In this document: piece after piece, positions 1-31,170 of the stretch
How the letters are laid out: every line of letters starts with the position of its first letter
Numbering within the stretch: the first letter of the stretch is position 1
Origin: an uncultured archaeon
Lineage (GTDB): Archaea; Iainarchaeota; Iainarchaeia; Iainarchaeales; CSSED10-239
Length of the DNA: 32,000 nucleotides
Assembly (NCBI GenBank): GCA_964591795.1
Contig: CAZQEL010000001.1
Span: 52,779 to 84,778, forward strand
Direction: 5' to 3'
Program-made: the position numbers and the translations under genes
Notes under the pieces: generated by a model
Databases searched by the model: none
Seen by the model: only the letters and a program-made list of their open reading frames with translations
What the model was told of the DNA's origin: nothing

Positions 1-3000
1 GTAATAAAAACCATTTAAACTTTGAATTACTTGTTCTTGAGGACTTAAAGGATATAATACTGTTCTTTGTGATATGAATTCTTCAGCTTTATTTATTCTG
101 TTTAAAACAACTTGAGTTAATTGAGTTGAATCACAATATTTTTCAGAACATCTATTAATATCTTGAACTGACCAATCCCAATCTAATAATACATTTGGAA
201 CTGCACCAGAACCAGTTTTACCAGTTTTACCAGTATCTGTAACACAATCTTGAACTACCAAATTATAATTTTGTGTTTCTTCTGGTTTAGTAATAAAAAA
301 TCCAAATCTATAGTTTCCAATCTTTTCAGAATTTGCAAATGCAGGATCTTGTATTTCAACTGAATCTTCAAGTGTTGGATTAAATTCATAGTTTTTAAAA
401 TAATATTTCTTTGAATCATTATTAATGTGACTATATATGTTATCAGTAAAACTAAATTGTAATGGTTTTATTCCAGATTGCTCTGGCCATAATGTTTCAT
501 TAACTTTACAAGTATAAAACATTTCAGTTTCAAGTTGTATTCTATTTCTAGTTGGTTTTGCACCATAACATTTAATTGATTGAGATAAAACTCCATCTTC
601 AATTGTTGGATTAAATGAATTATCACAATTTCTATTTTTTATTATTTGAGAATAATAATCTTCAATACTTGAATTAGGATTATTACATAAAACATAATCT
701 GTTAAAGATAAATCAGCGTCTTTTGTAAGTCTATCTTTAATTTTATTATAAATTTTATCTGAATCTTGTGTTCTTGTAATTAAATCATTATAAGTATAAT
801 ATCTAGCACCAGTAATATCAAAAATATTTAAATAAGAAGATTCATCGGATACATCATCTACAGTGATTATTTTTAAAAATTCACCATTAGAAAGTGTATA
901 CTTTTGAGGAACATCTAAATATTTATTATTTAAAACTGGATATGCAAATTCATTTTTCCAAGAAGTTGCTGCCCAAGAAACTAAAACAATCACAGCTAAA
1001 GTAATCCAACCATAAACAGGAATAGCAGCTAAAACTGCAGCAAATCCAACAGATCCAGCTGCAGTAGCACTAGCAACTGCAATTTCAAGCGCTGCAGCAG
1101 TAGCAATACTTAAACCAACCGCAGTAACAGTTGCTGCAGCTAAAACAGTTATACCAATTGCAGCAGCAACAGGCATAGCACCTTCATCAGTAGTACCCAT
1201 AAATTCTAAATTTTCTAAGGATTTATAATTCATTTTTTGGAAAGCATCATCTTGTTTATTAAAAGTTGATGACAAATAATCAGAAAAGGTAGATGTAACA
1301 GTAACTCCATTTTGAGCAATTTGAGCTTTATATTGTTCAACATCCTGAACTGTAGGAATAGAATTAACATAATCCCAAGGAGTCTGTTCTAAATTATTAT
1401 TATATAATCTTACACTTTCAGAAACTTTAGTAGTATCTGAAATTTCAATAAAAGGATCCTCCATCCATAAACCACTAGAATCTTTTGCATTTATTTTTAA
1501 TAAAGCATAAGCTGAAGTAACTTCACGTCCAATATTATTAACAACAGATATTTTATTGTTTAAAACATAAGCACCAGGAGCAATAGTTGAATCTTTTCTT
1601 TTAATTGAAACAGTTTTTTCTGAGTCTAAAAGACTAAAATTTAAAATACCATTTTCTTCATCAGTATTATCAATAGATAAATCTCTACAGGAATAATCAT
1701 TTCCTTCACAAAGATCCATTTTTAATGTTGCTTTACCAAAACATTCGTTTTTAATAGTTAGATCTTTAGCTACAGTATCCTCAAGAACAAAAAGACCACC
1801 AGAATTAATTTTTTCTCCACCATCATAATAGGATAAACATTGTGTTAAATCCATAATTGATATATTTGCTTTTAATAAAATATCATTAGAACCTTTATTT
1901 ACAAAAGTTAAACCCTCTTCTGTTTCTACTTGAGCATTTAAATAAATATCAGTTTTTACTTCTGCAAATTTAGCACCATTTGTGTTAAATGCAATTTCAA
2001 CAGTATATTCTTCTTCAGGTCTCATTTCATTAATTAAAATTCTATAATAATTTTCTGATAATTGTATTTGATTAGAAGCACCTGAACCAATTAATTTTAA
2101 GAAATAAATACCATATCTATCTCCATTAGATTTAATTTTTGCTTGAACATTCTTAATTGTTATAGGTAAATTTCCTTCTTTAGAGATACAAGTGTTTTTT
2201 ATTTTTAAAGTTGTAGATTGGGTTGTTGTTGAAACAACTGTATTCCATTCACCAGCACTTTGAGTAACAACTAAACAATCATCTTCTAAAACACCGTTTC
2301 CAACAGATAATTTTACATTAACAGGAATATTAAATAAATATTTTTGATTATTTAATAAATAAGTGGCAGTTAAAGCACCTAAAATATTTTCACTTACAGA
2401 ATGTGATTGAGCACTTTCAGAAGGTGCAAATTTAATTAAAATTTCTTTAGATTCGTTTGCAGGTATTACAAAACCATCAGGTGTACTAATTATTTGATTA
2501 TTAAGATAATTAACAGTTTGTAAAAGATTTAATAAATAGGATTTATTAAAAGAAACATCCTGTTCATTAAATTGATTTAAAATTAATGGATATGCAGTTT
2601 TATTTTTAAGTTCTAAAGTATATATCTCCCCATCCATATTTGTCTTATGAATAAATACTTCTAATGGTGAATTTGAATTAATTATTTCAGAATTATTAAA
2701 AATATCAATAATATCTCTAGTAATTGAAAATTCAACTGGATCTGCAAAATATTTAGATTTAATAGATTCAATTATAAAAGTTTCTCCTGGTCTTAAAGAT
2801 GGAAGACTAATTGTAGCTTTTCCTTCTGCATCAGTTGTTCTACCAGTTGAAACTATAGTTGTTCCAGTTATTGTTTTTTGTAAAATATTAATATTTGCAC
2901 TCTCAACAGCATTTCCAGTAGTATCTTTAACAATTACGGTTAATGTAAATGGAACACCAGGTACAATATTTTTAGGTTCATAATCAACTATCATTTTATC

Positions 3001-5733
3001 AAGATCTGATACAACAAAGTTAATTGGTAAAGTATAAATTACTGATTGTTCAGAAACAATTCTAGTTTGAAGTTTTGATTGTCCTAAAATTAATGGGAAT
3101 AATTTTAAATTAAAATTTATATTTGAAAACGGATTTAAATTATCCTTTAAAAGTTCATTTTCATAAAATGGAAGTTTAAAATTAGTTTCTCCAGTTGCAG
3201 TTTCGCCCACTGATGAAAATTCACCTGTAACATCATATGATTTAATACCAACCATAGCTGTAGGATTACCTTCAGAATTAACATTAACTGCTGAAAGTCT
3301 AGCATCAGGATAATTATTAGGTGATGAGTTTGTTATTTGATATTCTAAAGTATAATCAGAGTTAACAAGCATTGGAATATTTTTATTTCCTCCAATATCA
3401 TATCTTAATCCTTCTGAAACATCAACATATTGTCCTGAGAAACAAAATGTAGTATTACAAAGACTTGTTGCTTCTACAAAATATTGTAATTGAGTATAAT
3501 TTTGAGTCATGTAGTTTATAGATGTAATTGATGATGTATAAAAGAAAGATACTTTATCATTAGTTTGTGCATTTCTAATTCTTACAGGAATTGTAATTTC
3601 ATGAACTGATGCTGGAAAATCATTTACTTGTATATTTACAAGTTTTGATTCTAAATAATTACTTGAATTTGAAAAAGGTTCACTCTCATAATAAACAGCT
3701 ACACCTAAAGAGTTATTTTCAGACATTATAAAAATAATATCATCACTAACATTTATTTCACTTCCAGCTCTAAGTGTAAAATTAAAATTTGTACTTGAAG
3801 ATGGCATTATAATTTTATATTTTAAATAAAATACTTGATTATTTTTTAAAGATTCAACTTCTTGATAGTCAGTATTATATAAACCTAAATATTCAGTAAC
3901 AACATCTTCAGTTGTAAGCGCTCTTTCTAAAATAATATTTTTAATAATAGTTTTACTTTTATAAATTCTAAACATTTCAGTAAAATAAGGTAAATAACCA
4001 TCAGTTTCTATTTTTATGAAAACTTTTTTATCTGCTTTTATTTGATTTTGCAAAGTACCATTAGCTGAAGCCATTGCAGTTCCTAAAACAGCACCTGTTT
4101 CTGAATAAAAAGTTACTGTTGAATTACCAACTATTTCTTCTAATTTATTTTTTACATTTAAATTAATTGTTCCTTTTCCAATAATAACAGGAAGAGTAAT
4201 ATTTGTATCTGTTGGTGGTAAATTATGATATTCAGAAGAAATTTCTTCAATATAAAGATTCTTTGTCTTAACTGTAAAGTTTAAATCTGGAATATTTTTA
4301 AAAACTGCATTTCCATTTTCATCAGAAATACTAAAATCAAATCTAGGATCAATATATTGCCCATCAGCATCATATAACCAAGATTTAATACCAATAATTG
4401 GTTTATCATCTTCGTCTTTTATTGAAACAATAATATTTGAAACATTACTTATAGTTATTTTTTCTAAATTAAAAGTATATATGTTTAATGAATTAGATAC
4501 TGACATTAAATTTCCAGGAATGTACCCTTCTGCTGCTACTTTAAGTGAATAATTTTTATTAGTATCTACATTAAAAATAAAACCTTCATGAAGTTGTCTA
4601 TCTTCAACATTTTGATTTCCATCTAAAAGTAAAGTAACAATAGGATTTGTAGAAGCATCTAAAACAATACCTGTATCTCTATCTTTTACAAAAACAGTTA
4701 TTTCATTTAAAATAATTTCTTGATTTGTATCTGGATCAATAACAGGACTAATTCCATCTCCAGTATCAATCATATTAATAGTAATTTCAGACATTGCATT
4801 TTTTATAACAATTACATCTTCTTGTGATGCTAAATATCTATTTTGAACATCTGTAGCTTTAACAACATAATCACCAATAGGAATAGAATCAAAAGATCCA
4901 ACCCCAAAGTTTGATTGAATTGTTTTTATTGAACTAACAGGATCATCAACTGAGAATATTTTTAAAGTAATTGAGTCTTCAATATAATACTCTCCACTCA
5001 TTAAAGAAACATAAGCAGATCCAACTTCTAAAGAAATTTCTTTTGGACTTAATCTAATGATTGAATCAGACATTTTTATTGGAATACTTGTAGCATTATA
5101 TTTATCACTTACTACATTTGCATAAAGAGTTTTACAGCTTGAAGGAACTTCTAAAGACACAGAACCATCAACTGTTTCTATTGATGAAGGTGTAATTACA
5201 TCTCCATTATCACAAATAATAGTTACACTTAAAGCATCTTTAATTTTTTGTTCAGTTAAAGCATCTTGAAAATATACAATTTTTGGAAAATTAACTGGAA
5301 TATTTAAAAGACCGATTATAAAATTAAAAGTTTGTCTATCAAAAATTAGTTCTTGTTCATAATAGTCATAACCTTCTTGTTCAACAATAAACAAATAAGA
5401 ATTATTTTTATTTAAGGTGATTTTAAAAGAACCAGCAACATTTGTAGTATAATTATTTGTAGTTCCGTCTGATATGTTTCTAAGTTTAAAATCAAAATTA
5501 CTTAAAATATTATTTTCATTATCAGCAAGCCTTAAAGTTACATCAATGTTATTTGATTTTAATGAACCTAAACTTGAACCAAAAATTAAATAAAGTACTA
5601 TTAAAATAATTAAAATGAATAAAAAAAAAGAAGTTAAAGGATACTTTTTATCTAAAGGACCTGTTATTTTCTTAATTGGAATTCTATTATCTATCCCTGT
5701 AAGAATATTTTGCCATGTCTCTTTAAAACTCAT
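1..5733 (-). CDS. Giant N-terminally anchored surface protein, paralog A (5' complete, 3' end beyond window; 1911 codons in window)
   Basis: Absent from the supplied ORF track, presumably because it is open at the window edge. ATG at 5733-5731 with GGTGAT 4 nt upstream. Hand translation: MSFKETWQNILTGIDNRIPIKKITGPLDKKYPLTSFFLFILIILIVLYLIFGSSLGSLKSNNIDVTLRLADNENN... I read triplets 1-960 in this frame and saw no stop. An internal Met at 1200-1198 is exactly 1511 codons from the start. Domain order is collinear with the 1862-, 2307- and 2645-aa proteins. Confidence 0.88.
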   Translation of the reverse strand, partial: MSFKETWQNILTGIDNRIPIKKITGPLDKKYPLTSFFLFILIILIVLYLIFGSSLGSLKSNNIDVTLRLADNENNILSNFDFKLRNISDGTTNNYTTNVAGSFKITLNKNNSYLFIVEQEGYDYYEQELIFDRQTFNFIIGLLNIPVNFPKIVYFQDALTEQKIKDALSVTIICDNGDVITPSSIETVDGSVSLEVPSSCKTLYANVVSDKYNATSIPIKMSDSIIRLSPKEISLEVGSAYVSLMSGEYYIEDSITLKIFSVDDPVSSIKTIQSNFGVGSFDSIPIGDYVVKATDVQNRYLASQEDVIVIKNAMSEITINMIDTGDGISPVIDPDTNQEIILNEITVFVKDRDTGIVLDASTNPIVTLLLDGNQNVEDRQLHEGFIFNVDTNKNYSLKVAAEGYIPGNLMSVSNSLNIYTFNLEKITISNVSNIIVSIKDEDDKPIIGIKSWLYDADGQYIDPRFDFSISDENGNAVFKNIPDLNFTVKTKNLYIEEISSEYHNLPPTDTNITLPVIIGKGTINLNVKNKLEEIVGNSTVTFYSETGAVLGTAMASANGTLQNQIKADKKVFIKIETDGYLPYFTEMFRIYKSKTIIKNIILERALTTEDVVTEYLGLYNTDYQEVESLKNNQVFYLKYKIIMPSSSTNFNFTLRAGSEINVSDDIIFIMSENNSLGVAVYYESEPFSNSSNYLESKLVNIQVNDFPASVHEITIPVRIRNAQTNDKVSFFYTSSITSINYMTQNYTQLQYFVEATSLCNTTFCFSGQYVDVSEGLRYDIGGNKNIPMLVNSDYTLEYQITNSSPNNYPDARLSAVNVNSEGNPTAMVGIKSYDVTGEFSSVGETATGETNFKLPFYENELLKDNLNPFSNINFNLKLFPLILGQSKLQTRIVSEQSVIYTLPINFVVSDLDKMIVDYEPKNIVPGVPFTLTVIVKDTTGNAVESANINILQKTITGTTIVSTGRTTDAEGKATISLPSLRPGETFIIESIKSKYFADPVEFSITRDIIDIFNNSEIINSNSPLEVFIHKTNMDGEIYTLELKNKTAYPLILNQFNEQDVSFNKSYLLNLLQTVNYLNNQIISTPDGFVIPANESKEILIKFAPSESAQSHSVSENILGALTATYLLNNQKYLFNIPVNVKLSVGNGVLEDDCLVVTQSAGEWNTVVSTTTQSTTLKIKNTCISKEGNLPITIKNVQAKIKSNGDRYGIYFLKLIGSGASNQIQLSENYYRILINEMRPEEEYTVEIAFNTNGAKFAEVKTDIYLNAQVETEEGLTFVNKGSNDILLKANISIMDLTQCLSYYDGGEKINSGGLFVLEDTVAKDLTIKNECFGKATLKMDLCEGNDYSCRDLSIDNTDEENGILNFSLLDSEKTVSIKRKDSTIAPGAYVLNNKISVVNNIGREVTSAYALLKINAKDSSGLWMEDPFIEISDTTKVSESVRLYNNNLEQTPWDYVNSIPTVQDVEQYKAQIAQNGVTVTSTFSDYLSSTFNKQDDAFQKMNYKSLENLEFMGTTDEGAMPVAAAIGITVLAAATVTAVGLSIATAAALEIAVASATAAGSVGFAAVLAAIPVYGWITLAVIVLVSWAATSWKNEFAYPVLNNKYLDVPQKYTLSNGEFLKIITVDDVSDESSYLNIFDITGARYYTYNDLITRTQDSDKIYNKIKDRLTKDADLSLTDYVLCNNPNSSIEDYYSQIIKNRNCDNSFNPTIEDGVLSQSIKCYGAKPTRNRIQLETEMFYTCKVNETLWPEQSGIKPLQFSFTDNIYSHINNDSKKYYFKNYEFNPTLEDSVEIQDPAFANSEKIGNYRFGFFITKPEETQNYNLVVQDCVTDTGKTGKTGSGAVPNVLLDWDWSVQDINRCSEKYCDSTQLTQVVLNRINKAEEFISQRTVLYPLSPQEQVIQSLNGFYY
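958..1200 (-). other. Ala/Gly-rich hydrophobic module in A (residues ~1512-1592), about 2-3 TM-length segments
   Basis: Hand translation: MGTTDEGAMPVAAAIGITVLAAATVTAVGLSIATAAALEIAVASATAAGSVGFAAVLAAIPVYGWITLAVIVLVSWAATSW. The GC-richer GCN codon run is visible in the DNA at 1000-1190. Confidence 0.7.
3919..5571 (-). other. Protein-level array of about six CarboxypepD_reg/PEGA-like beta-sandwich repeats in A (residues ~55-605)
   Basis: Recurrent pattern of about 85-95 aa, for example IDVTLRLADNENNILSNFDFKLRNISDGTTNNYTTNVAGSFKITLNKNNSYLFIVEQEGYDYY. This matches the V.V.D..g.p...a.V.l......T...G.f.i.l..g.Y.v.v...GY logic of carboxypeptidase-regulatory-like domains. Hand translated, boundaries approximate. 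Confidence 0.55.
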
Positions 5734-5737
5734 AAAA

Positions 5738-5743
5738 ATCACC
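5738..5743 (-). promoter_or_regulatory. Shine-Dalgarno GGTGAT for gene A
   Basis: Minus strand reads ACAGGGTGATTTTTATG. It is complementary to the conserved 16S 3' end, with a 4-nt spacer. Confidence 0.6.
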
Positions 5744-5755
5744 CTGTGTTAATAA

Positions 5756-8677: not shown

Positions 8678-8685
8678 ATATTTTA

Positions 8686-8691
8686 CACCTT
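8686..8691 (-). promoter_or_regulatory. Shine-Dalgarno AAGGTG for gene B
   Basis: Minus strand reads AAATTAAAGGTGTAAAATATATG, with an 8-nt spacer. Confidence 0.55.
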
Positions 8692-8724
8692 TAATTTCAT
8701 AAAAGTTTTTTTTAATAAATTTAA

Positions 8725-21277: not shown

Positions 21278-21290
21278 AAGTTATTCTCTC

Positions 21291-21309
21291 TTTTATATAT
21301 ATATTATAC
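21291..21309 (-). promoter_or_regulatory. TATA-box-like element upstream of gene D, candidate promoter of a D-C-B-A operon
   Basis: Minus strand reads GTATAATATATATATAAAAGAGAGAATAACTTATG. The TATA-like run is centred about 19-26 nt upstream of the ATG and there is no SD, which fits a leaderless or near-leaderless archaeal transcript. The call is weak because the whole spacer is AT-rich. Confidence 0.3.
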
Positions 21310-21393
21310 TTAAACAGCATAATCCTTTAAAAACTATGTTATTTATTAAATAATAATTGTGCTTATATATTTAAATACCTTTTTATTAACCAT

Positions 21394-21447
21394 AAAAAGT
21401 TAATAGATTACAAAAACACTGTTTTTCAGCTAAAAACTAATTAAAAA
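21394..21447 (-). terminator. Cluster of T5 runs after the pilin-like gene
   Basis: Four T5 runs on the minus strand lie within about 55 nt of the TAG stop (plus-strand A5 at 21443-47, 21432-36, 21412-16, 21394-98). Confidence 0.35.
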
Positions 21448-21448
21448 C

Positions 21449-23113: not shown

Positions 23114-23122
23114 CTGTATATA

Positions 23123-23126
23123 CACC
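23123..23126 (-). promoter_or_regulatory. Shine-Dalgarno core GGTG for the pilin-like gene (supports ATG 23113 as the start)
   Basis: Minus strand reads AATATTGGTGTATATACAGATG, with a 9-nt spacer. Confidence 0.4.
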
Positions 23127-23190
23127 AATATTTATAAAATATTAATTAAAATATATAGAAGTAGTTTAGGTTTTTATATATTTCTTTTTT

Positions 23191-23209
23191 AAAAATAAAA
23201 AAAGAAAAA
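23191..23209 (-). terminator. Oligo-T termination signal after gene E
   Basis: Minus strand reads CTTTTTCTTTTTTTATTTTT, beginning 24 nt after the stop at 23233. Confidence 0.4.
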
Positions 23210-23232
23210 GATTAAATTTTTAAAAATTAAAA

Positions 23233-26200
23233 TTATTTAATCTTTTTTATTGAACAAGAATCAATTCTTGTAGTTGGCATTGATGAAATAATACTTGGGT
23301 CTTGAGTATTATATGGATTAATATCAATTACATATCTTGACTTATAATCCCCATCTGAAGGTTCAATATATTCCATGCTTGCAACATACAAAATATTTTT
23401 TGTAAAAGTTGCATCTTTTTTAAATTCAATTGAATAATTTAAATTTGTCATACCATCATCTTGAAGACTTCTAATACCAGCCCAATTACCTAAAAGACCA
23501 CAACCAAGTCCTCTTGCAAATCCACCAACTCCTCTTACCCACTTAGCTGATTTTCCAACTTTAGCTACTTTTGATCCATTTAATTTTTTAAAATCATTTA
23601 ATAATTCATCAGGAACTACATATTTACCTGTAGTTGGATCTAAAGTTAAACCTTTTAATTTATTACTTAAACTAACTAAAGCAGCTTTATCTACTTTCTT
23701 TGCTACTAATTGTGAATTTAAAGTAGTTAAATCAGAAGAAGCTTTACGTGCTGCTTTATTACCAATTTGTACTTTATTAGGGTCTAATTTTACTTTTCTT
23801 GGATTTAAATTTGATCTTGCATTATTTTTTTCAATAGCTTTAATTTTATCTTCTAAAACCTTAATTGAGTCATCAGTATTTTTAATAAGTCCAGTTTTAG
23901 GATCATCTAAACTATTTACAATATTATTACGTGAAACATTATCAATTAAATTAACAGCACTAGTTGTTCCTACACCAGATATATGTAAATTAGATTTTGC
24001 TTGTATAAGTCTATTTGCGAATAAATCTTTACCTACCAAATGACTATTTTTTCCAACCATAGATCCATTTTTTATTATCCTAGAAAAATCATCAATTTCA
24101 GTTGAAGATAATTTAGTAAAATCAATTGGATTTGTATGAGAATATATTTTTGTATATAATTGATTAAATTTAGCTAAATCAGTAGGATCTGCAGCAACGA
24201 ATTTAATTGGATCTACACCAAGAAAATATCTATCAAAATTTTTTAATTGACTATTAAATAATTTAAATTCTTGAGATGACAAACCAGTTCCAGGAATTAT
24301 TGGTTGAACCTGAGTAAAAGGATCTGTACCTAAATCTAATACAGTTTCGCCTATTCTTAAAGGAGCAGCAGCAGCAGAAGAACCTGTTTTAAAAATACCT
24401 GCAGTTAATGAACCCATAGTACCTGCAAACCAAGTACTAACTGATTCTGCAGCAGGACCAAATAATTCAAAGTTCTTTGATGAAAACAAACTTCCTAAAA
24501 CTAAATCAATACCCTTACCTATTCCACCATCTCCATTATACATAGTAGATGCAAACACATCTAATGCAGGAAGACCACATGAAAATGCAAGACAATCAAT
24601 TGCAGCTCCAAAAATTGATGCTGGCATAACTAAAGCTGATACCGCATAACATCCAGCACAAACTGCAGAACATTTACCAAAGTAAATTCCAGCATTGGTT
24701 AAGGATTTATTAAGTTTTGAATTATATTTTTGATCAGAATCTTTTATAGTACAATTTAAATTTTCATAATCAAAAAACAACTTTGTATTCCTTGAACTAT
24801 ATTCAGAACTATTAATTACCTTTTCAATAACAGCACAAAACTCTTCTTTTTCTTCAGGAGAATATATTTTACTCCAATCAATAAGTGCATAGTTATTTTG
24901 AGGGAATACTTTATTATCTTCTTTATTATGTTCAGTAACAATTGTTTGATATGTTTTTAATAAAAAGCTTTCAGGAGTAATTGCACATGAAGTCAATAGC
25001 ACATCAACATTTGCAATTCTATTTCCAATAACACCTTCACCCGAATAAATACTGTTTGCAGTAATTTTAATTTTTTGATTTACAAACAAACTAATATCAT
25101 TTGGATTTTGAGGTTTAACACAAAATAAAAAGTTACTATCTTTATTTTGTATAAGGTTTAAATTAATATTATCATTTAAAGAATCGCCTTCATTTAATTT
25201 AAATCCACTAATTAAGCCTTCTCTTTTTTCAGAAGTTATGTTTAAAGTTTCATCAATTGAGGATTTAATTTTCAAAGAAGTACAACTAACATCTTCATTT
25301 AAAGGAATAATAGGTTCTTTAGTTGTAAACATTAAATCTCCTGCTTTAATAGTATCTAAAATAAGCATATAGGAATTATCTTCTGAGACACATACTTTCA
25401 AAGAAGTGTCATTCTTAACTACCATTGCACGTATTACATTGACAAAGTCTTTTGAAACTTTACTTGGAACTAAATTATTTGAAGTAACATATTTTTTATT
25501 TAAAATAACATTTATTTGTTCAGGAGCAGATATATTATAATCTTTAAGATCACTAAATACTATTTTTCCAAGTGCAACATTATTTTCTGTAATATCATCT
25601 ATTGAAACATTTAAAGTATTATTTCTACTAGATAAAATATCATAGGAATAAACATATCTTGTATTAGGATCAGTTCCAAATTTACCAATAGCTTTAATTA
25701 AATCTTTAGAAAGATTAGAATCACCTGTAAATAAAGTTACCCAACTTCCTTCTCTTTGATTTTTAGATAAACCTAAATCCCAAGGCATGAAATTTAAATA
25801 GTTTGTAATTTTCTTTTTACAATGTGATGTTTGTTCATATTTTAAAACGTTTAAATAATAGTAAGCTCTATCTGGATAGATTGAATCTGGACTAGCTGCA
25901 ATAAATCCATCAATTTCAACTGTGTATTTTCCACAACCCTTAAATTGATTAGATAAAAATATTTTATTTCCACCAACATAAACACCCAAAGCACTTTTGT
26001 TATTTATTAAAAATGGATTTGTTTCAATAAAATAATTCTTAAAAGAATAATTTGATTTGTTTAAAGCATATTTAACAAGATCAACTGAAACCATATCATT
26101 TTGCATATAAAAAGTAAATTCTAATGGATTTATATCTCCAATCTCAGAAATTTTACAAAATCCATTTCTTGCATCAGCTACAGAACAACCAGTATTCATT

Positions 26201-29200
26201 AATTTAGCTTGAGCTTGAGAGGATACTTGTTTTATTTGACTTTGAAGTTCATCTACTTTTTTTAATAAAAATTCAGCAGAAGATAAACCATCACAATAAC
26301 CTGAACTCTCAGTACAAGCACCTATTGATACAACCGGTGTATTTATTGTACTTGTATTTTGAGAATCACTGCATAAAGGTAATGAAGAAATATTAGAAAC
26401 CATTTTATCTCTAGATTCTTCTACAGAAGCATCCTGTATATTTATAGACACAGTAAAATCTTCAGATGAAACTTGGTTACCCGAATTTAAAAGTCTACCT
26501 AAAATTATCATTGGCATTTTTGGAGAACCACCAAGTGAAATAGCACTAAGTTCTAAATTATAAGTTGCTGTTTGATTAGGATAAATTATATTTCCAGAAC
26601 CACTAGCTGGAGATATCTTTAAAGGATTTAACCCAAATGTTTCTGTGTAAGCATCAAGTTTTTTATCAATACCAATAACTGAAACTGGTTCTGCACAATA
26701 ATTTGTTAAAGAAACATTTCTATTTCTTTTTTCTCCAACTTTTAAAGTAAAATCTAAATGTTTATTACTTACTTTTAAACAATTTGGAGAAGAAATTGTA
26801 AACACAATTTGAGTTGTAGCACTAATTGGATTGTTAATACCAGCCGCTTTACCTGTAACTAAAATAAACATATTGTCAGTTGTTGATTTTTTAATATTCA
26901 CTTCAAATTGAAGATCAATAGGTATTGTTTTACCTGGTTCTAAAACATTAATTTCACGAGGATATTCTGTAACTCCAATATTTGAAGAAACTATTTTTGG
27001 ATATTGACTTATTTGAATATCAGTAATTGGAACAGTACCAATATTTTTAATCATAAATCTAGTTGAGTTAACTGCAGATTGTTGAGCATTAAGTTGTGAA
27101 ATTGGAACTTGTATTAATGAAGGCATAATCCATAAAGCCTTACTTAAATCTAAAAGATCTATATTTAATAATGATGGAGAAACTGAATAATAATTGTTAT
27201 TCCATAAAATATCATAGGTATATTTTGCTGCTTGTTTTCTATTAGAATGATTTTTAATAATTACATCATACACTTTTTCTTCTCCTGCAAGAACAGTAAC
27301 ATTACCTAAAGATAATTCAATATCTTTGTTTGCAGACATAGAAGATGAAGTATATTGTGGTGTAAAAGTTACATTTTGAGAACAATTATTTTTTATAATA
27401 AAGAAAGTTGTGTTCTCTGTATATTCACTTGTTGTATTTGGCATTGATGAATAATAAGTATAATAATTAGGATCAGTATAGGTTCTAGTATTAGATGAAC
27501 CTGAATAGTTTCTAGTATTATTCTGAGATGACATATATTCGTCATAACTATTATAGTTTTGAGATTGAGCTAATAATGGATTTTGATTATTATTGGAATT
27601 ATAATTATAACTGGTATAAGGTGTATTAAACACATCAGGTGCAGTGTATTCTAAATTTAAACCAACAAAAGAATTTACTGCATTTGGAGTAATTGTTAAA
27701 CAATCACTTAAAATAAGCCCTTTATTTATTCTTACAGGAATTATTTTTGTGATTTCTCTAGAACCAATTGTTGCAAAGATTGGTATTTTTACGTATGCAG
27801 TTGTAAATTGTAAATCATTACCAATTGTAACAACAGCTTCAAAAATTTGAGAAGATTTTTTATTAATTGAAATTGCACCTCTAATATCAACAAAAACATC
27901 ACTAGGGCCTTCAATCCAAATAGGATCTCCAAATCTTATATTATTTGCAATATAATCTCCATTGTTTTGTATTGAAAAACTTTGAGATGAAGTTATTTGA
28001 TCAGTTCCTAAGTTAATTAGAATTTCCTGTGGAGTTAAAATAAATAAAGAATCATCAACAATATATAATTCTTTTTCAAAAGGAGTATAACCGTAACTAT
28101 CAACAACCATGGTTATTGATGAAAAATTAAATTTATTATCTATTGTGTATTTTCCATTTTCACCATTAGTACCTTCTGCTTTTACAAATAAAATAAATTC
28201 AAGAGTTTCAGTATTATAAAATGAAATTACAGCATTATTAATTGAAGATAAATTAGATGCATCTAAAACATCAACAGTAAATTTAGAACCATATGGTACA
28301 AATGAATCAGGATTAACCACTACTTTCATTTCTTTTTTATCATGAATATTAAAACTTAATCTATTATCAGAAACTGAATTACCTAAAATTGTATCAGTTG
28401 ATTTAAGATCAATGTAAGCTGTACCAATTTCTTTTGCAATAAAAGAAAGATATATCTTTTTTAAAACATTACCTGAAATTGATAGGCCATCTCTTGTAAC
28501 TTCAAAACTATCAATTGATTGAGATGCATTATTTAAAGATCTATTATCTGAAAATAAATTTAATGACACCAATGGAAAACTCTTTGATGTTTCTGCTAAA
28601 ATATTTAATTGAGTATTTTTTAAAGAATAAATATTTGTTTCAAGAATATATTCTTCGCCTTTGACAGCATAGAAATCCTCAACACTAAATTCATTATCTT
28701 TTGAATCTATAAACTTATTAGAAATACAAAAATTATCTTTACAATCTAAAGGTACATCAAACAAATCAACAACAACTTCTTTTGTGTTTGCATAAAGAGC
28801 TGATTTTTTGTTTGTTGAATAACTTTGATTTAAAAAAGTGTCTATTGGATCTCTAAAATATAATTTATTTTCTTCGTATAAAACTCTATATTTAAATTTT
28901 AATTTTGTAACAGATAAATCAACAGCACTTACTTTAATTTTAATTTGTTTGTTTGAAAGTGGTATTGTTGACACCCATTTAAGTTCAAGCCATTTATTTA
29001 AAACATCAGAAGAACCCTCATTTAAAAAATCTGTTGACTGCATTCCAGGTTCTGGAGCAGGATTATAGGAAGTACTATATTTAAAATTTGTAATATCCAT
29101 GGCCATAAAACCATTTATACCATAACTCATTTCTTCAGAATCAGTTTGAGTATCATCTCCTGCTCTGATATGCACTTCTCCCTTATAAACGTTTTCTGGG

Positions 29201-31170
29201 AACAAAACATCAAATACTAAATAATATTCTTTGTTTAAACTAATATAATTTGTAGTAATACCTTTTGCATCAACAACACCTACAAAATCAATTATTGGAT
29301 AATCAGTATTATTTACTTCTTTTGAAAAATCAACACGTATGTATCCTGATGAATCAGCTTCATCAGTTGTAAAATTAACAGAGGATATATTAAAGTTTTC
29401 ATCAGTATATTCAGCTAATAAATCTTTATATCCTTGAGAATTAAAAATAACTTCTTCACCTAAAGATAAATTTTGATCAAAAAGAACAGTTCCATCTTTT
29501 GCTTTAATTATAAGACTACCTTTTGTTAACTTAAATCCATTTTCATCAAACAAATCAAGCTTTATCATTTTAGATGCATTATCAACTACAAAAATAATTT
29601 TATTTTCCTTTAATGAATCAATTGTAATTTCTTCAGAAACTTGTGTATCTCCAACTTGAGCATAAATATTATAAATTGTGTTTATTCTTAGTGGAATTGA
29701 AAGCGCACCAGATAGATCAGTTTCAAGAGAAGTATTATATGGTATTTCAGATGAATCTTCTAAGGATACTAATTTTTCATGAATTTTAATATATGCTTTT
29801 GGAACTGGCATATTTTTTTCATCAACAACAAACACATTAAGTATTGCGCTGTTTGTAACATCTATCTTGTCTAAACTAAAATCTGCTTTTGTGTCTATGT
29901 TTAAATTAAAAGAATTATGTTCACAAAAATAATCAAGTTTACATGCAGTTATTAAAATATTTGAATCAACGTTTATTCCTTTAAAATTAATAAACCCTAA
30001 GGCATCAGTTTTACCTGAGTCAATAACAATATTATTTAAATTATATGCTGTAACTAAAACATCATCAAGAACTAAAAAATTACTTTTTGCTCTTGCTGTA
30101 ACATCAATAAAATTACCACCAAGTTCTAAAACAACATTATATGTCATATCAGGATTAATTATTCTATATGAAACATTATCATCACTAATATATGTTTTAT
30201 AACTTTCTTTTTTAACTTTATAAGTAATTGTTTCTCCAGAGTTAACATACACTAAAGCTTTTCCATCAATTGTTGTTTGAGATCCTATTTCATCATTAGA
30301 AAGATTGAATACAGAAACTTCTGCATCATTAACAAAATTTTCAGAAGCGTCTAAAACTACAAAAGTAACTTTACTTTTTCCTTCAAAAGAAAGAGAAGCA
30401 ATATTCATTTCAATTACTTTTTCTTGTTCTAATGAATTTATTCTGTAATTACTTTCTTTAAAATCTTCATAATTATCAGCTTTTGCTATAAGTTCAATAT
30501 CTTTGCTAATTGGAACTTCTATAATAATATAATGATTATTAAAAATATCTACAATTCCTTCAACACTCTCAGTTTTATTATTAATTGTAAAATTTGCAGT
30601 AACCATTCCAGAAGATATTTTTCTTTGATTATCTCTGTCTTTTAATTGTATTTTTAAAATACCATATTCTACTTTTTCAGAAAAAACAACAGATACTTGT
30701 TCTTCTTTATTATTTATTGTTAATTGTTTTTGATAATCAGGATATCCTGGTTTTGTTGCTTTTAAAGTATAGGTGTTACCTATCTTAAGTTTTATTTTTT
30801 GAGAAACACCATCATCAATAGCTCCTGTAAAAACTTCTTTAATAGCGTCATCGCTTATCGTTAAATAAATATCGGACACTGAAGTACCTTGATAATCAGA
30901 AACATTAAAAGTTAAAGTTGACTGACTTGAGAAAGAAAAAAATATTAAAAAAATAATTATGAAAATTAATAATAATAATATGGAGGCCATAATTGCAAAC
31001 GCAGGAAGCCCTTTTTGTTCTAAATAATTATTCCAAGTGTTTATTGGAATTCCTTTTTCAGTAAGCCAATTAGACATTGAAGTATATTTGTCTTCTAAAT
31101 AATTATAGAATCTTGAAAATATATTTTGATTTGAAGTAGTAGATTTTTTTTTTCTAACCATATTTTTCAT
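23233..31170 (-). CDS. Giant N-terminally anchored surface protein, paralog E, with CarboxypepD_reg/PEGA-like repeats, an N/Y/S-rich insert, a hydrophobic Gly/Ala/Cys module and a basic tail
   Basis: 2645-aa ORF with ATG at 31170. Basic N-terminus MKNMVRKKKSTT, then FSRFYNYLEDKYTSMSNWLTEKGIPINTWNNYLEQKGLPAF, then the TM helix AIMASILLLLIFIIIFLIFF. Confidence 0.95.
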   Translation of the reverse strand: MKNMVRKKKSTTSNQNIFSRFYNYLEDKYTSMSNWLTEKGIPINTWNNYLEQKGLPAFAIMASILLLLIFIIIFLIFFSFSSQSTLTFNVSDYQGTSVSDIYLTISDDAIKEVFTGAIDDGVSQKIKLKIGNTYTLKATKPGYPDYQKQLTINNKEEQVSVVFSEKVEYGILKIQLKDRDNQRKISSGMVTANFTINNKTESVEGIVDIFNNHYIIIEVPISKDIELIAKADNYEDFKESNYRINSLEQEKVIEMNIASLSFEGKSKVTFVVLDASENFVNDAEVSVFNLSNDEIGSQTTIDGKALVYVNSGETITYKVKKESYKTYISDDNVSYRIINPDMTYNVVLELGGNFIDVTARAKSNFLVLDDVLVTAYNLNNIVIDSGKTDALGFINFKGINVDSNILITACKLDYFCEHNSFNLNIDTKADFSLDKIDVTNSAILNVFVVDEKNMPVPKAYIKIHEKLVSLEDSSEIPYNTSLETDLSGALSIPLRINTIYNIYAQVGDTQVSEEITIDSLKENKIIFVVDNASKMIKLDLFDENGFKLTKGSLIIKAKDGTVLFDQNLSLGEEVIFNSQGYKDLLAEYTDENFNISSVNFTTDEADSSGYIRVDFSKEVNNTDYPIIDFVGVVDAKGITTNYISLNKEYYLVFDVLFPENVYKGEVHIRAGDDTQTDSEEMSYGINGFMAMDITNFKYSTSYNPAPEPGMQSTDFLNEGSSDVLNKWLELKWVSTIPLSNKQIKIKVSAVDLSVTKLKFKYRVLYEENKLYFRDPIDTFLNQSYSTNKKSALYANTKEVVVDLFDVPLDCKDNFCISNKFIDSKDNEFSVEDFYAVKGEEYILETNIYSLKNTQLNILAETSKSFPLVSLNLFSDNRSLNNASQSIDSFEVTRDGLSISGNVLKKIYLSFIAKEIGTAYIDLKSTDTILGNSVSDNRLSFNIHDKKEMKVVVNPDSFVPYGSKFTVDVLDASNLSSINNAVISFYNTETLEFILFVKAEGTNGENGKYTIDNKFNFSSITMVVDSYGYTPFEKELYIVDDSLFILTPQEILINLGTDQITSSQSFSIQNNGDYIANNIRFGDPIWIEGPSDVFVDIRGAISINKKSSQIFEAVVTIGNDLQFTTAYVKIPIFATIGSREITKIIPVRINKGLILSDCLTITPNAVNSFVGLNLEYTAPDVFNTPYTSYNYNSNNNQNPLLAQSQNYNSYDEYMSSQNNTRNYSGSSNTRTYTDPNYYTYYSSMPNTTSEYTENTTFFIIKNNCSQNVTFTPQYTSSSMSANKDIELSLGNVTVLAGEEKVYDVIIKNHSNRKQAAKYTYDILWNNNYYSVSPSLLNIDLLDLSKALWIMPSLIQVPISQLNAQQSAVNSTRFMIKNIGTVPITDIQISQYPKIVSSNIGVTEYPREINVLEPGKTIPIDLQFEVNIKKSTTDNMFILVTGKAAGINNPISATTQIVFTISSPNCLKVSNKHLDFTLKVGEKRNRNVSLTNYCAEPVSVIGIDKKLDAYTETFGLNPLKISPASGSGNIIYPNQTATYNLELSAISLGGSPKMPMIILGRLLNSGNQVSSEDFTVSINIQDASVEESRDKMVSNISSLPLCSDSQNTSTINTPVVSIGACTESSGYCDGLSSAEFLLKKVDELQSQIKQVSSQAQAKLMNTGCSVADARNGFCKISEIGDINPLEFTFYMQNDMVSVDLVKYALNKSNYSFKNYFIETNPFLINNKSALGVYVGGNKIFLSNQFKGCGKYTVEIDGFIAASPDSIYPDRAYYYLNVLKYEQTSHCKKKITNYLNFMPWDLGLSKNQREGSWVTLFTGDSNLSKDLIKAIGKFGTDPNTRYVYSYDILSSRNNTLNVSIDDITENNVALGKIVFSDLKDYNISAPEQINVILNKKYVTSNNLVPSKVSKDFVNVIRAMVVKNDTSLKVCVSEDNSYMLILDTIKAGDLMFTTKEPIIPLNEDVSCTSLKIKSSIDETLNITSEKREGLISGFKLNEGDSLNDNINLNLIQNKDSNFLFCVKPQNPNDISLFVNQKIKITANSIYSGEGVIGNRIANVDVLLTSCAITPESFLLKTYQTIVTEHNKEDNKVFPQNNYALIDWSKIYSPEEKEEFCAVIEKVINSSEYSSRNTKLFFDYENLNCTIKDSDQKYNSKLNKSLTNAGIYFGKCSAVCAGCYAVSALVMPASIFGAAIDCLAFSCGLPALDVFASTMYNGDGGIGKGIDLVLGSLFSSKNFELFGPAAESVSTWFAGTMGSLTAGIFKTGSSAAAAPLRIGETVLDLGTDPFTQVQPIIPGTGLSSQEFKLFNSQLKNFDRYFLGVDPIKFVAADPTDLAKFNQLYTKIYSHTNPIDFTKLSSTEIDDFSRIIKNGSMVGKNSHLVGKDLFANRLIQAKSNLHISGVGTTSAVNLIDNVSRNNIVNSLDDPKTGLIKNTDDSIKVLEDKIKAIEKNNARSNLNPRKVKLDPNKVQIGNKAARKASSDLTTLNSQLVAKKVDKAALVSLSNKLKGLTLDPTTGKYVVPDELLNDFKKLNGSKVAKVGKSAKWVRGVGGFARGLGCGLLGNWAGIRSLQDDGMTNLNYSIEFKKDATFTKNILYVASMEYIEPSDGDYKSRYVIDINPYNTQDPSIISSMPTTRIDSCSIKKIK
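24346..24696 (-). other. Gly/Ala/Cys-rich hydrophobic module in E (residues 2159-2275), probably membrane-interacting
   Basis: NAGIYFGKCSAVCAGCYAVSALVMPASIFGAAIDCLAFSCGLPALDVFASTMYNGDGGIGKGIDLVLGSLFSSKNFELFGPAAESVSTWFAGTMGSLTAGIFKTGSSAAAAPLRIGE. Confidence 0.7.
27406..27627 (-). other. N/Y/S/T-rich low-complexity segment in E (residues ~1182-1255)
   Basis: NTPYTSYNYNSNNNQNPLLAQSQNYNSYDEYMSSQNNTRNYSGSSNTRTYTDPNYYTYYSSMPNTTSEYTENTT. It sits in the same position relative to flanking conserved residues as the D segment. Confidence 0.85.
29317..30921 (-). other. Protein-level array of CarboxypepD_reg/PEGA-like repeats in E (residues ~84-618)
   Basis: Examples: VTFVVLDASENFVNDAEVSVFNLSNDEIGSQTTIDGKALVYVNSGETITYKVKKESY and LNVFVVDEKNMPVPKAYIKIHEK...ETDLSGALSIPLRINTIYNIYAQ. 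Confidence 0.6.
31144..31153 (-). repeat. A10 homopolymer inside codons 6-9 of gene E
   Basis: Minus strand reads ATG AAA AAT ATG GTT AGA AAA AAA AAA TCT (plus-strand T10 at 31144-31153). Confidence 0.9.

What the first reader, a model, noticed from the sequence alone, without database searches (positions are those of the whole stretch)
1..31170. 31-kb co-oriented locus of four collinear giant paralogs, a truncated paralog and a pilin-like gene, with no recognisable enzymes
Six consecutive minus-strand genes encode 10,252 aa within the window: E 2645, pilin-like 554, D 2307, C 1862, B 973 and A at least 1911. A, C, D and E share one blueprint, in four parts. (1) A cytoplasmic N-terminal motif plus a single TM helix. 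(2) About six CarboxypepD_reg/PEGA-like repeats that end at residue 595-613 in all four. (3) A following module that opens with a similar string in each: D IEFLGFYDATGE, C MVFVGIYKEGQE, E IDFVGVVDAKGI, A TEYLGLYNTDYQ. (4) A Cys-bracketed beta-sandwich (C[LI].[VI]...[IM][KN]N[TN]C) whose first Cys is at residue 1153 (A), 1180 (C), 1266 (D) and 1157 (E). After that the tails diverge. I see no catalytic motif, ATPase, secretin, sortase/archaeosortase signal or S-layer anchor. The paralogs are strongly diverged at the DNA level, so the duplications are old and all copies have been kept intact. If the host has a small genome, this locus is a large share of its coding capacity. That fits a cell-surface or host-contact apparatus, and I cannot place it in any named family.
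Basis: partly seen in the sequence, partly recalled or inferred. Interest (0 to 1): 0.85.

Follow-up and report, generated by a model that had tools for sequence, protein, structure and literature searches.

The report
Giant surface-protein gene array, DPANN archaeon
Nearly the whole window is one array of huge, related, membrane-anchored surface-protein genes plus a pilin-like gene, from a tiny-genome archaeon of the Iainarchaeota, and the same uncharacterised family turns out to be present across that phylum, probably forming its outer coat or contact surface.

Summary
The window carries six co-oriented minus-strand genes, and A, C, D and E are true collinear paralogs. No enzyme, ATPase or known anchor signal was found.

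Three corrections:
- B is not a truncated paralog. It is a free-standing copy of a ~680-aa Cys-rich C-terminal "head" module that A also carries. C followed by B looks like a fission of one ancestral giant.
- The tails are not unrelated. D keeps a degenerate head. E keeps only one motif of it.
- In D the homologous Cys pair is 1131/1159, not 1266.

The closest genome is Candidatus Forterrea multitransposorum, a DPANN archaeon of the Iainarchaeota with an 839,632-bp genome. The orthologous locus is 3.9% of that genome.

The family spans the phylum: 714 cluster representatives were found, usually as 2-3 giants in tandem. The usual layout is a conserved ~40-aa cytoplasmic leader, one TM helix, about 14 Ig-like β-sandwich domains, a Gly/Ala-rich hydrophobic segment, and then the head. 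No structural relative of the head was found.

Best reading: a multi-component, N-terminally anchored surface coat or pillar layer. The closest known kind is the colossal archaeal S-layer protein. Host adhesion or membrane contact is a serious rival. I rate it a new variant of a known kind, with function unproven.

The parts
1..5733 (-). Gene A: giant protein, at least 1911 aa in the window and 2426-2492 aa in orthologs. It is the canonical fused form: blueprint plus C-terminal head.
   Evidence: Open frame from the ATG at 5733 running off the left end. Orthologs L007, L008, L010 and L011 are 56-62% identical. GGTGA lies upstream of the ATG.
5578..5733 (-). A residues 1-52: cytoplasmic leader (IPIKKITGPLDKKYPLTSFF) plus TM helix. 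This is a short variant of the family-wide N-terminal motif.
   Evidence: Kyte-Doolittle score 3.05 at residue 33. Motif seen in the family consensus.
3931..5547 (-). A residues 63-601: six tandem CarboxypepD_reg/PEGA-like β-sandwich repeats forming the stalk.
   Evidence: jackhmmer repeat envelopes 63-140, 153-228, 247-321, 341-415, 431-519 and 520-601. Pfam PF13620 and PF17802.
958..1170 (-). A residues 1522-1592: Gly/Ala-rich segment with three hydrophobic stretches (the last 42 aa uncharged), lying between the Ig-like chain and the head.
   Evidence: Kyte-Doolittle scores 2.07, 1.84 and 1.93. The equivalent region is present in at least 56 of 133 long (≥1,800-aa) family proteins scanned.
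64..468 (-). A residues 1756-1890: start of the C-terminal head module. The rest lies beyond the window.
   Evidence: Head HMM E 2.9e-21, HMM positions 223-354. BLASTP A 1822-1887 against B 297-385, E 2e-6.
5756..8677 (-). Gene B (973 aa): signal peptide, Gly-rich hydrophobic helix (residues 58-77), then a free-standing head module. Probably the split-off C-terminal part of a C-type giant.
   Evidence: Eight Cys are conserved across the 12 B-family members. AF2 pLDDT is 70-90 over most of residues 300-973.
5828..7870 (-). B residues 270-950: the conserved head module, with motifs C..G.TG..LP...W...WCD...IYCD(S/A)TQFSIELLNKLK, LMKDGYSxDF, PERDSPLYYMPFDGLVG, RQGYG, PSRATPV and WTGxGxCxDF.
   Evidence: Alignments A1-A3. 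714 representatives match, nearly always at the extreme C-terminus of 2200-3250-aa proteins.
8725..14313 (-). Gene C (1862 aa): leader, TM helix, about 14 β-sandwich domains to residue ~1410, then a fast-evolving tail with no head.
   Evidence: The tail (bins from residue 1601) is 25-29% identical to the ortholog, against 57-74% for the rest. Canonical giants elsewhere match C 1-1500 and then B 270-950.
9814..12516 (-). C residues 600-1500: module 3 plus the following β-sandwich domains, including the Cys-bracketed domain 1180-1207.
   Evidence: AF2 pLDDT 72.8, all-β. Foldseek finds only multi-Ig-like chains.
14354..21277 (-). Gene D (2307 aa): blueprint plus a degenerate head.
   Evidence: 18 homologs. 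hhalign of D 1858-1931 against B 299-389, E 6.5e-4. Transitive links through P0011, P0013 and P0014. C-terminal motif NNVCFMSDSSEIKLWHNP.
15542..15562 (-). D residues 1906-1912: YCDQEQF, the most conserved head motif.
21449..23113 (-). Gene P (554 aa from the ATG): class-III-type (prepilin-like) signal MLKNKRG|FNLFTALIALML followed by a Cys-paired globular part. A conserved partner gene between giants E and D.
   Evidence: Orthologs start at this Met and GGTG lies upstream. The same position between giants is kept in L004, L006, L081-L083 and distant L084 (27% identity). No Pfam or NCBIfam match.
23233..31170 (-). Gene E (2645 aa): the most divergent paralog. The blueprint runs to residue ~1463, followed by a distinct tail.
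   Evidence: Profile-profile E 8e-67 over E 18-1463. The tail shares only the C...YCD...helix motif with the head.
24301..24678 (-). E residues ~2165-2290: Cys- and Gly/Ala-rich hydrophobic region.
31297..31632 (-). Gene S (111 aa, three TM helices): conserved immediately upstream of E in all related loci.
   Evidence: 86% identical to the Forterrea-lineage ortholog.

Best explanation
The window holds the Forterrea-lineage version of a gene family found across the Iainarchaeota (DPANN archaea). The family consists of tandem paralogous 'colossal' surface proteins.

Shown:
- Each giant has a conserved ~40-aa N-terminal leader followed by one strongly hydrophobic helix.
- About 14 Ig-like β-sandwich domains follow: six CarboxypepD_reg/PEGA-like repeats, then about eight more.
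- In the canonical form the protein ends in a Gly/Ala-rich hydrophobic segment and a ~680-aa Cys-rich head with no detectable relative.

Inferred:
- The N-terminal helix is an uncleaved signal-anchor. It leaves the leader in the cytoplasm and threads the rest through Sec.
- The six N-terminal repeats act as a pillar, as the β-sandwich domains of the Sulfolobus stalk protein SlaB and the Ig pillar of the Pyrobaculum colossal S-layer protein do.
- The non-redundant paralogs A, C+B, D and E, with the class-III-signal protein P, assemble into a hetero-oligomeric proteinaceous coat or pillar layer. This coat forms the cell's outer surface and therefore also its contact interface.
- In this lineage one giant has split into C (anchor plus Ig chain) and B (a secreted head that re-associates non-covalently).
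For: - Architecture: TM helix and leader; stalk repeats; all-β chain of about eight further domains that Foldseek matches only to multi-Ig chains, including the S-layer protein SbsB.
- The only PDB sequence match with a meaningful E-value is the S-layer stalk protein SlaB, 8qox_B, at 3.5e-6.
- A 2,667-aa membrane-anchored archaeal S-layer protein with 19 Ig-like domains is now described (bioRxiv 10.64898/2026.08.21.746120). It matches these proteins in size and domain type.
- Distribution fits a core structural component. There are 139 head-encoding stretches in 70 loci of the species-representative genome set, almost all in Iainarchaeota/Diapherotrites MAGs and including complete genomes AR10 and CP064981. 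Typically 2-3 giants stand in tandem. There are 714 representatives in 1.84 billion proteins.
- Each paralog has its own ortholog group in conserved order, which argues for distinct roles.
- No enzyme domain appears in any of 18 diverse members.
- The proteins are acidic and evolve faster than the neighbouring protein S.
- C-type giants elsewhere carry B-type heads, which supports the fission.
Against: - There is no expression, abundance or lattice evidence.
- Known archaeal S-layer proteins have a cleaved N-terminal signal and a C-terminal anchor. Here the polarity is reversed.
- Four or five giant paralogs in one coat has no precedent that I know of.
- The conserved Cys pairs, the strongly hydrophobic internal segment and a head conserved across a whole phylum (about 50 invariant residues) look more like a specific binding or insertion device than a lattice protein. 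S-layer proteins usually diverge fast (my own knowledge, not tested here).
- Forterrea is predicted to be a symbiont (PMC5905446), so a host-contact role is plausible.
- If the hydrophobic segment (Kyte-Doolittle score up to 2.96) integrates into the cell's own membrane, the 'pillar plus distal head' geometry is wrong for those members.
Confidence: 0.45

Rival explanations
1. Host-adhesion fibrils. Each giant is an anchor-stalk-head adhesin, functionally like bacterial giant Ig-repeat adhesins. The conserved head binds a surface component of a host or partner cell. The paralogs give different specificities or cooperate at the contact site.
For: - The anchor, Ig-like extender and C-terminal globular module follow the classic giant-adhesin layout. 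Foldseek hits include PrgB Ig domains, cadherin and DSCAM.
- DPANN archaea with 0.66-0.84-Mb genomes are predicted symbionts.
- Giant surface proteins are repeatedly linked to host interaction in Nanohaloarchaeota, CPR and Omnitrophota (papers listed).
- The proteins evolve faster than the neighbouring protein S.
Against: - The head is the best-conserved part across the phylum, whereas receptor-binding tips usually vary most.
- No lectin, protease or other binding-domain signature was found.
- In many members a strongly hydrophobic segment precedes the head and would probably tether it to the producer's own membrane.
Confidence: 0.3
2. Membrane-insertion or bridging device. The Gly/Ala-rich uncharged segment (32-76 aa), often flanked by conserved Cys (C[DA]W..EA upstream, [DE]DPC downstream) and sometimes carrying a central CPxC, acts like an internal fusion loop. 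It inserts into a partner's membrane to open the cytoplasmic connection that DPANN cells make with hosts.
For: - The segment is found in at least 56 of 133 long (≥1,800-aa) family proteins scanned. In 19 of them a Cys lies close to both ends, and the sequences shown have acidic, not basic, flanks, so both ends lie on the same side of the membrane.
- A, B and E in the window carry versions of it.
- The resemblance to Cys-stapled internal fusion loops of viral class I fusion proteins is from my own knowledge and was not tested.
Against: - There is no sequence or fold similarity to any fusogen or pore former.
- A segment this hydrophobic would normally stop transfer in SecYEG and integrate into the producer's own membrane (inference).
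- In C/B-type members the segment is only moderately hydrophobic, and D lacks it.
Confidence: 0.12
3. Type IV pilus-related system. P is a pilin or minor pilin, and the giants are pilus-associated tip or anchor proteins.
For: - P has a class-III-type signal motif that is invariant even in a 27%-identical homolog (NKKGFNLFTALIS).
- P always sits between two giants.
Against: - No pilin-family model matches P.
- No assembly ATPase, platform protein or prepilin peptidase lies within 10 kb in any locus. The recurrent ~800-aa neighbour looks like a family-B DNA polymerase and the ~300-aa one like a methionine aminopeptidase; the ~500-aa ORF was not identified. This rests on reading their sequences, with no profile search.
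- P-like genes were found only in some lineages, whereas the giants are phylum-wide.
- The giants have their own membrane anchors.
Confidence: 0.08

Closest known systems
Colossal S-layer protein PySLP of Pyrobaculum arsenaticum (bioRxiv 10.64898/2026.08.21.746120)
   Same: Archaeal, ~2,700 aa, the largest protein of its genome. Membrane-anchored by one TM helix. Built almost entirely of Ig-like β-sandwich domains (19), organised as a pillar plus non-canonical distal domains (searches compared).
   Different: - PySLP has a cleaved N-terminal signal and a C-terminal TM helix. Here an N-terminal signal-anchor follows a conserved cytoplasmic leader.
- PySLP is a single gene and forms a homohexamer. 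Here there are four or five diverged paralogs, a split head and a pilin-like gene.
- PySLP has no Cys-rich ~680-aa head and no hydrophobic internal segment.
- No sequence homology was shown. PySLP candidates were reported only in Thermoproteota.
SlaB, the S-layer stalk protein of Sulfolobus acidocaldarius (PDB 8QOX chain B)
   Same: The only PDB sequence match with a meaningful E-value: the family's stalk repeats (profile positions 309-420) align to SlaB β-sandwich domains at E 3.5e-6. Both proteins hold a surface structure away from the membrane.
   Different: SlaB is 475 aa, with three β-sandwich domains, a coiled coil and a C-terminal TM helix. It pairs with the canopy protein SlaA. The similarity is confined to a generic CarboxypepD_reg-type domain.
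Bacterial giant Ig-repeat adhesins (LapA/SiiE/MpIBP type; PrgB Ig domains)
   Same: The logic of anchor, long chain of Ig-like domains and terminal non-repeat module. Foldseek finds PrgB Ig domains. Pfam finds Big_1, SpaA and SdrD_B.
   Different: - No RTX or T1SS signal, no sortase motif and no neighbouring secretion genes.
- The domains are individually diverged and positionally orthologous, not near-identical tandem repeats.
- The host is archaeal and the anchor is at the N-terminus.
SPEARE giant proteins of Nanohaloarchaeota
   Same: Giant proteins of DPANN archaea proposed to act in host interaction (papers listed; details from my own knowledge).
   Different: SPEARE proteins carry protease and restriction-endonuclease domains. 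No enzymatic domain is found here in any of 18 family members. No homology was detected.
Extended signal peptide regions of very large secreted bacterial proteins (ESPR of autotransporters, KxYKxGKxW of serine-rich adhesins)
   Same: A conserved N-terminal extension ahead of the hydrophobic core, restricted to very large exported proteins. The analogy is from my own knowledge. Here 52 of the 53 ORFs carrying the motif in the fetched loci are ≥1,200 aa or run off a contig end; the one short complete ORF (692 aa) has the same leader.
   Different: There is no sequence similarity. The context is archaeal, and the helix appears to remain as an anchor.

Membership tests
Archaeal S-layer protein (colossal PySLP-like) | Multi-domain Ig-like β-sandwich architecture of more than 2,000 aa | tested here: met
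   jackhmmer repeats, an all-β AF2 model, Foldseek hits to multi-Ig chains and Pfam β-sandwich families.
Archaeal S-layer protein (colossal PySLP-like) | Cleaved N-terminal Sec signal and a C-terminal TM helix or other C-terminal anchor | tested here: not met
   The TM helix is at residues ~33-78, after a conserved leader. There is no C-terminal hydrophobic segment and no PGF-CTERM.
Archaeal S-layer protein (colossal PySLP-like) | Sequence or structural homology to a characterised S-layer protein | tested here: inconclusive
   The only matches are a generic β-sandwich match to SlaB (E 3.5e-6) and a Foldseek hit to SbsB among hundreds of Ig-chain hits.
Archaeal S-layer protein (colossal PySLP-like) | Most abundant envelope protein, forming a 2-D lattice | not testable with these tools
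   Needs proteomics and cryo-ET.
Type IV pilin (gene P) | Class III signal peptide: short basic N-terminus, G/A at -1, then ~20 hydrophobic residues | tested here: met
   MLKNKRG|FNLFTALIALMLVSITIVFVY. The motif is invariant in orthologs and in the distant L084 homolog.
Type IV pilin (gene P) | Match to a pilin N-terminal family model (Pfam or NCBIfam) | tested here: not met
   No hit at E up to 0.1.
Type IV pilin (gene P) | Linked assembly ATPase, platform protein or prepilin peptidase | tested here: not met
   None was found within ±10 kb in the window or in the orthologous loci whose ORFs I listed. Whole genomes could not be searched.
Bacterial RTX/BIg giant adhesins | C-terminal RTX repeats or T1SS signal, with adjacent T1SS genes | tested here: not met
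   No GGxGxD motifs, no RTX Pfam hit and no transporter genes in the loci.
Alpha-2-macroglobulin / MG-domain proteins | Thioester CGEQ motif and TED domain | tested here: not met
   bMG3 and MG4 hits come from single β-sandwich domains only. No C[GL]EQ motif.
SPEARE proteins (Nanohaloarchaeota) | Serine protease and restriction-endonuclease domains within a giant protein | tested here: not met
   No enzymatic Pfam or NCBIfam domain in the window proteins or in 18 family members.
Iainarchaeota giant family (defined here) | N-terminal leader motif (LED.YY..LDK...PVY..DPIDK..PSF) followed by a TM helix | tested here: met
   Present in C, D and E, with a short variant in A.
Iainarchaeota giant family (defined here) | Collinear ~1,450-aa blueprint of β-sandwich domains | tested here: met
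   A, C, D and E all have it.
Iainarchaeota giant family (defined here) | C-terminal head module with the YCDxxQF motif | tested here: met
   Met for A and for B as a separate gene. D has a degenerate version. In E only the motif is recognisable. C lacks it.

The most novel reading that the evidence does not exclude
The giants, the split head B and the pilin-like protein P form a surface apparatus specific to the Iainarchaeota. In this reading its Cys-flanked, Gly/Ala-rich hydrophobic hairpin and its conserved head, for which no structural relative was detected, insert into or bridge to another cell's membrane. That would make it a candidate for the still-unidentified machinery by which DPANN archaea connect to hosts. 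Independently of that, it would be the first archaeal surface layer built from several N-terminally anchored colossal paralogs.
Probability: 0.15. Interest if true: 0.85.

Novelty: new variant of a known kind. Interest (0 to 1): 0.6.

Why it matters
- No Iainarchaeota (Diapherotrites) culture or envelope description turned up in the papers I searched. This family gives concrete, phylum-wide candidates for the main surface structure. They take about 4% of a 0.84-Mb genome, so they must matter to the cell.
- The work defines three previously unnamed modules that can now be searched for and tested: an N-terminal leader specific to the giants, a ~680-aa Cys-rich head with no detectable relative, and a hydrophobic Gly/Ala-rich segment often flanked by Cys.
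- It documents a gene fission (C+B) that shows the head can work as a separate polypeptide.
- If the proteins form a coat, they extend the newly described 'colossal S-layer' idea to DPANN archaea with reversed polarity and a heteromeric composition.
- If they mediate contact, they are entry points to the mechanism of DPANN-host attachment.

Tried and rejected
- Pfam and NCBIfam on all seven window proteins returned only β-sandwich families.
- PDB sequence search with the B-family profile returned nothing at E up to 10. With the whole-family profile it returned only SlaB and other generic β-sandwich hits.
- The AF2 model of B searched with Foldseek against PDB and BFVD gave only a CARDB/Ig-like subdomain match (~120-140 aa) and no global match; TM-scores normalised to the 973-aa query were ≤0.10.
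- The AF2 model of C 600-1500 searched with Foldseek gave only bead-on-string Ig proteins.
- The third word-indexed homolog search, using the head alignment, returned only the B family again and was wasted.
- The search for head relatives on viral contigs found none.
- Rfam and tRNA scans of the window found nothing.
- The idea that the recurrent ~500/800/300-aa neighbours in distant loci are pilus machinery was rejected. By inspection of the sequences, the ~800-aa ORF looks like a family-B DNA polymerase and the ~300-aa ORF like a methionine aminopeptidase; the ~500-aa ORF was not identified, and none was run against Pfam.
- Alpha-2-macroglobulin was rejected because there is no thioester motif.
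- The sequon count is not enriched over shuffles, so it gives no glycosylation signal.
- Exact look-ups of window proteins returned only shorter contigs, so no context beyond the window came from the same organism.
- The Forterrea genome paper does not mention these genes.
- The literature searches found no description of this family.
Full report
**What is in the window**

The window is 24-31% G+C. Seven minus-strand genes fill it:
- A: 1-5733, at least 1911 aa, open at the left end.
- B: 5756-8677, 973 aa.
- C: 8725-14313, 1862 aa.
- D: 14354-21277, 2307 aa.
- P: 21449-23113, 554 aa from the ATG that orthologs also use.
- E: 23233-31170, 2645 aa.
- S: 31297-31632, a small three-TM protein of 111 aa.

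Gaps between genes are 22-171 nt. GGTG(A)-type ribosome-binding motifs precede A, B, C, P and S. T-runs follow the stop codons of S and E, so D-C-B-A at least looks like one operon. No tRNA or Rfam family is present.

BLASTP gives single collinear alignments: A-C 4e-22 over 1475 aa, A-D 3e-20, C-D 6e-20 and D-E 1.5e-7. A profile of five E-type proteins against a profile of 18 family members gives probability 100%, E 8e-67, aligning E 18-1463 with positions 8-1436. All four giants therefore share a ~1,450-aa blueprint.

An iterated search seeded on one repeat finds six ~85-aa β-sandwich repeats at A 63-601. It finds most of them in C, D and E, plus one more at a collinear position (~930-1040) in all four.

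One correction concerns D. In the alignment the Cys pair homologous to A1153/1182 and C1180/1207 is D1131/1159. D1266 belongs to the next domain. E1157/1263 brackets a 78-aa N/Y/S-rich insert.

An AF2 model of C 600-1500 has mean pLDDT 72.8. It is entirely β and resolves about eight further sandwich domains up to residue ~1410. Foldseek matches it only to bead-on-string Ig-like proteins: central-pair (ciliary/flagellar) apparatus proteins, PrgB, α2-macroglobulins, cadherin and SbsB. The ectodomain is thus a chain of about 14 Ig-like domains.

**What B and the tails are**

B has no similarity to the blueprint. A profile of its 12 homologs hits the last ~680 aa of full-length A orthologs. It also hits the tails of distant family members P0015-P0017, with E from 1e-47 to 1e-89. 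With a broader 164-sequence profile these values reach 1e-116 and 1e-232. B is therefore a free-standing copy of a C-terminal 'head' module.

Elsewhere in the phylum, single proteins of 2,300-2,700 aa match C over residues 1-1500 and then B over 270-950. The heads closest to B belong to C-type giants. In this lineage C lacks a head and B starts 47 nt after C ends. I infer a gene fission of one ancestral giant into C and B.

D's tail is a degenerate head:
- It keeps YCDQEQF at residue 1906 and the terminal motif VC...WHNP.
- It aligns to B 299-389 at E 6.5e-4.
- D-like proteins P0013, P0014 and P0011 hit the head profile at 4e-29, 4e-15 and 5e-7.

E's tail shares only the C...YCD-helix motif, and the evidence is weak (hhalign probability 8%).

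**Other family features**

- A conserved cytoplasmic leader (consensus ..LKD.Y..LED.YY..LDK...PVY..DPIDK..PSF) precedes the TM helix in most members. Of the 53 ORFs in the fetched loci that carry the motif, 52 are ≥1,200 aa or run off a contig end; the remaining complete ORF (692 aa) has the same leader.
- A Gly/Ala-rich uncharged segment of 32-76 aa lies between the Ig chain and the head. It is present in at least 56 of 133 long (≥1,800-aa) family proteins scanned. Its flanks are often C[DA]W..EA upstream and [DE]DPC...L.DY downstream, and it sometimes has a central CPxC. Kyte-Doolittle hydrophobicity reaches 2.96. The window has versions of it in A (1522-1592), B (58-77) and E (~2165-2290).

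**The head has no detectable relatives**

PDB sequence search finds nothing. An AF2 model of B has pLDDT 70-90 over most of residues 300-973. Foldseek matches only an internal CARDB/Ig-like sandwich in PDB and nothing convincing in BFVD. No enzyme domain appears in any window protein or in 18 diverse members.

**Where it comes from and how widespread it is**

The best genome match is Candidatus Forterrea multitransposorum CP045477.1, a complete genome of 839,632 bp; B is 64% identical. The gene order E-P-D-C-B-A is conserved in related contigs of 0.25-0.7 Mb. In the upstream-covering loci L081-L083, S and a 147-154-aa gene lie upstream of E. In the three downstream-covering loci whose ORFs I read (L007, L008/L009), a 122-125-aa secreted protein and an ~810-aa Cys/Gly-rich secreted protein lie downstream of A. 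The six core genes total 32,550 nt, or 3.9% of the Forterrea genome.

The head module occurs in 139 stretches in 70 loci of the species-representative genome set. Nearly all are Iainarchaeota/Diapherotrites MAGs, including AR10. Usually 2-3 giants stand in tandem on one strand. An exhaustive HMMER search finds 714 representatives, 475 of them at E ≤1e-30. Almost all hits lie at the extreme C-terminus of 2,200-3,250-aa proteins. Where these carry names, the names are 'hypothetical' or 'carboxypeptidase regulatory-like domain-containing protein'. No viral relatives were found. I found no paper that describes the family.

**The pilin-like gene**

P begins MLKNKRG|FNLFTALIALML, a class-III-type signal. 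The motif is invariant in orthologs and in a 27%-identical homolog that also sits between two giants. No pilin model matches it. No pilus ATPase, platform or peptidase gene lies within 10 kb of any locus. Of the recurrent neighbours in distant loci, the ~800-aa ORF looks like a family-B DNA polymerase and the ~300-aa ORF like a methionine aminopeptidase. The ~500-aa ORF was not identified, and this rests on reading the sequences only. I treat P as a conserved partner that carries a prepilin-type anchor. It is not evidence for a pilus.

**Interpretation**

Shown:
- This is a family of paralogous giant proteins with an N-terminal TM helix, a long chain of Ig-like domains and a conserved head with no detectable relative.
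- It is conserved across a DPANN phylum and maintained as distinct ortholog groups.

Inferred:
- The proteins are type II signal-anchored and displayed on the cell surface.

The closest known kind is the archaeal S-layer pillar protein. Two points support this:
- The only PDB sequence match with a meaningful E-value is the Sulfolobus stalk protein SlaB (8qox_B, E 3.5e-6).
- A 2,667-aa, 19-Ig-domain membrane-anchored 'colossal' S-layer protein has just been described in Pyrobaculum.

Near-universal presence in the phylum, the non-redundant paralogs, the acidic composition and the absence of enzymes favour a hetero-oligomeric surface coat (confidence 0.45).

Points against that reading:
- The polarity is reversed relative to known S-layer proteins, with the anchor at the N-terminus.
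- The number of paralogs has no precedent that I know of.
- The head and its Cys pattern are conserved across the phylum.
- The internal hydrophobic segment has no counterpart in known S-layer proteins.

These features keep host adhesion (0.30) and membrane insertion or bridging (0.12) alive. A pilus-tip role is unlikely (0.08). The topology of the hydrophobic segment is unresolved. It could be a hairpin in the producer's own membrane or an exposed loop, and the answer changes the predicted geometry.

**Verdict**

The finding is real and largely accurate, with three corrections: the nature of B, the homology of the tails, and the Cys position in D. It is not a unique oddity of one genome. It is the local form of a large, unnamed, phylum-wide family. 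I rate it a new variant of a known kind (colossal Ig-domain archaeal surface proteins), with interest 0.6.

Noticed in passing
window 31738-31816 and 31831-31909: Two 79-nt direct repeats, 90% identical with 93-nt spacing, lie in the AT-rich region upstream of gene S. No Rfam match. Their function is unknown; they could be a regulatory element or a duplicated promoter region.
   Followed up: partly
window 31297-31632 (-): S is a 111-aa three-TM protein with no family match. It lies immediately upstream of E in the three related loci that extend upstream of E (L081-L083) and is 86% identical to its Forterrea-lineage ortholog, much more conserved than the giants. A 147-154-aa gene lies further upstream in those loci.
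   Followed up: partly
L007 20264-22895; L008 20388-22898 (downstream of A, outside the window): In orthologous loci the array continues with a 122-125-aa secreted protein and an ~810-aa secreted protein rich in Cys and carrying GNGGxGG repeats. Neither has a Pfam hit.
   Followed up: partly
window 27382-27699 (E residues 1157-1263) and 17059-17478 (D residues 1266-1405), both on the minus strand: Long N/Y/G/Q/S-rich low-complexity inserts sit inside Cys-bracketed β-sandwich domains of E and D, and are also present in D orthologs. They may be disordered loops or glycosylation platforms.
   Followed up: no
window 8725-9513 (-), C residues ~1600-1862: The C-terminal tail of C is only 25-29% identical to its ortholog, against 57-74% for the rest of C. 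C orthologs vary in length (1603-1867 aa). This fits a relaxed linker left behind after the head split off as B.
   Followed up: partly
L005 8191-9870: In one JGI assembly of the Forterrea-type population, the P gene is called as two ORFs (154 + 364 aa) instead of one of 559 aa. This could be a frameshift variant or an assembly error.
   Followed up: no
L025, L027, L075, L078: Contigs carrying typical family giants sit in MAGs labelled Thaumarchaeota or Chloroflexi. These are probably binning or taxonomy errors rather than real occurrences outside Iainarchaeota.
   Followed up: no
family members P0066, P0079, P0125, P0134, P0166, P0103, P0152, P0147: Many hydrophobic segments have a central CPPC/CPxC motif at the presumed hairpin turn, in addition to the flanking Cys. 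The meaning is unexplained.
   Followed up: no
window 8578-8677 (-), B residues 1-33: In the window's B the predicted signal-peptidase site is VPVAA|PG, with Pro at +1, whereas orthologs have a canonical VSA|x site. The signal peptide of this B may stay uncleaved and act as an anchor.
   Followed up: no
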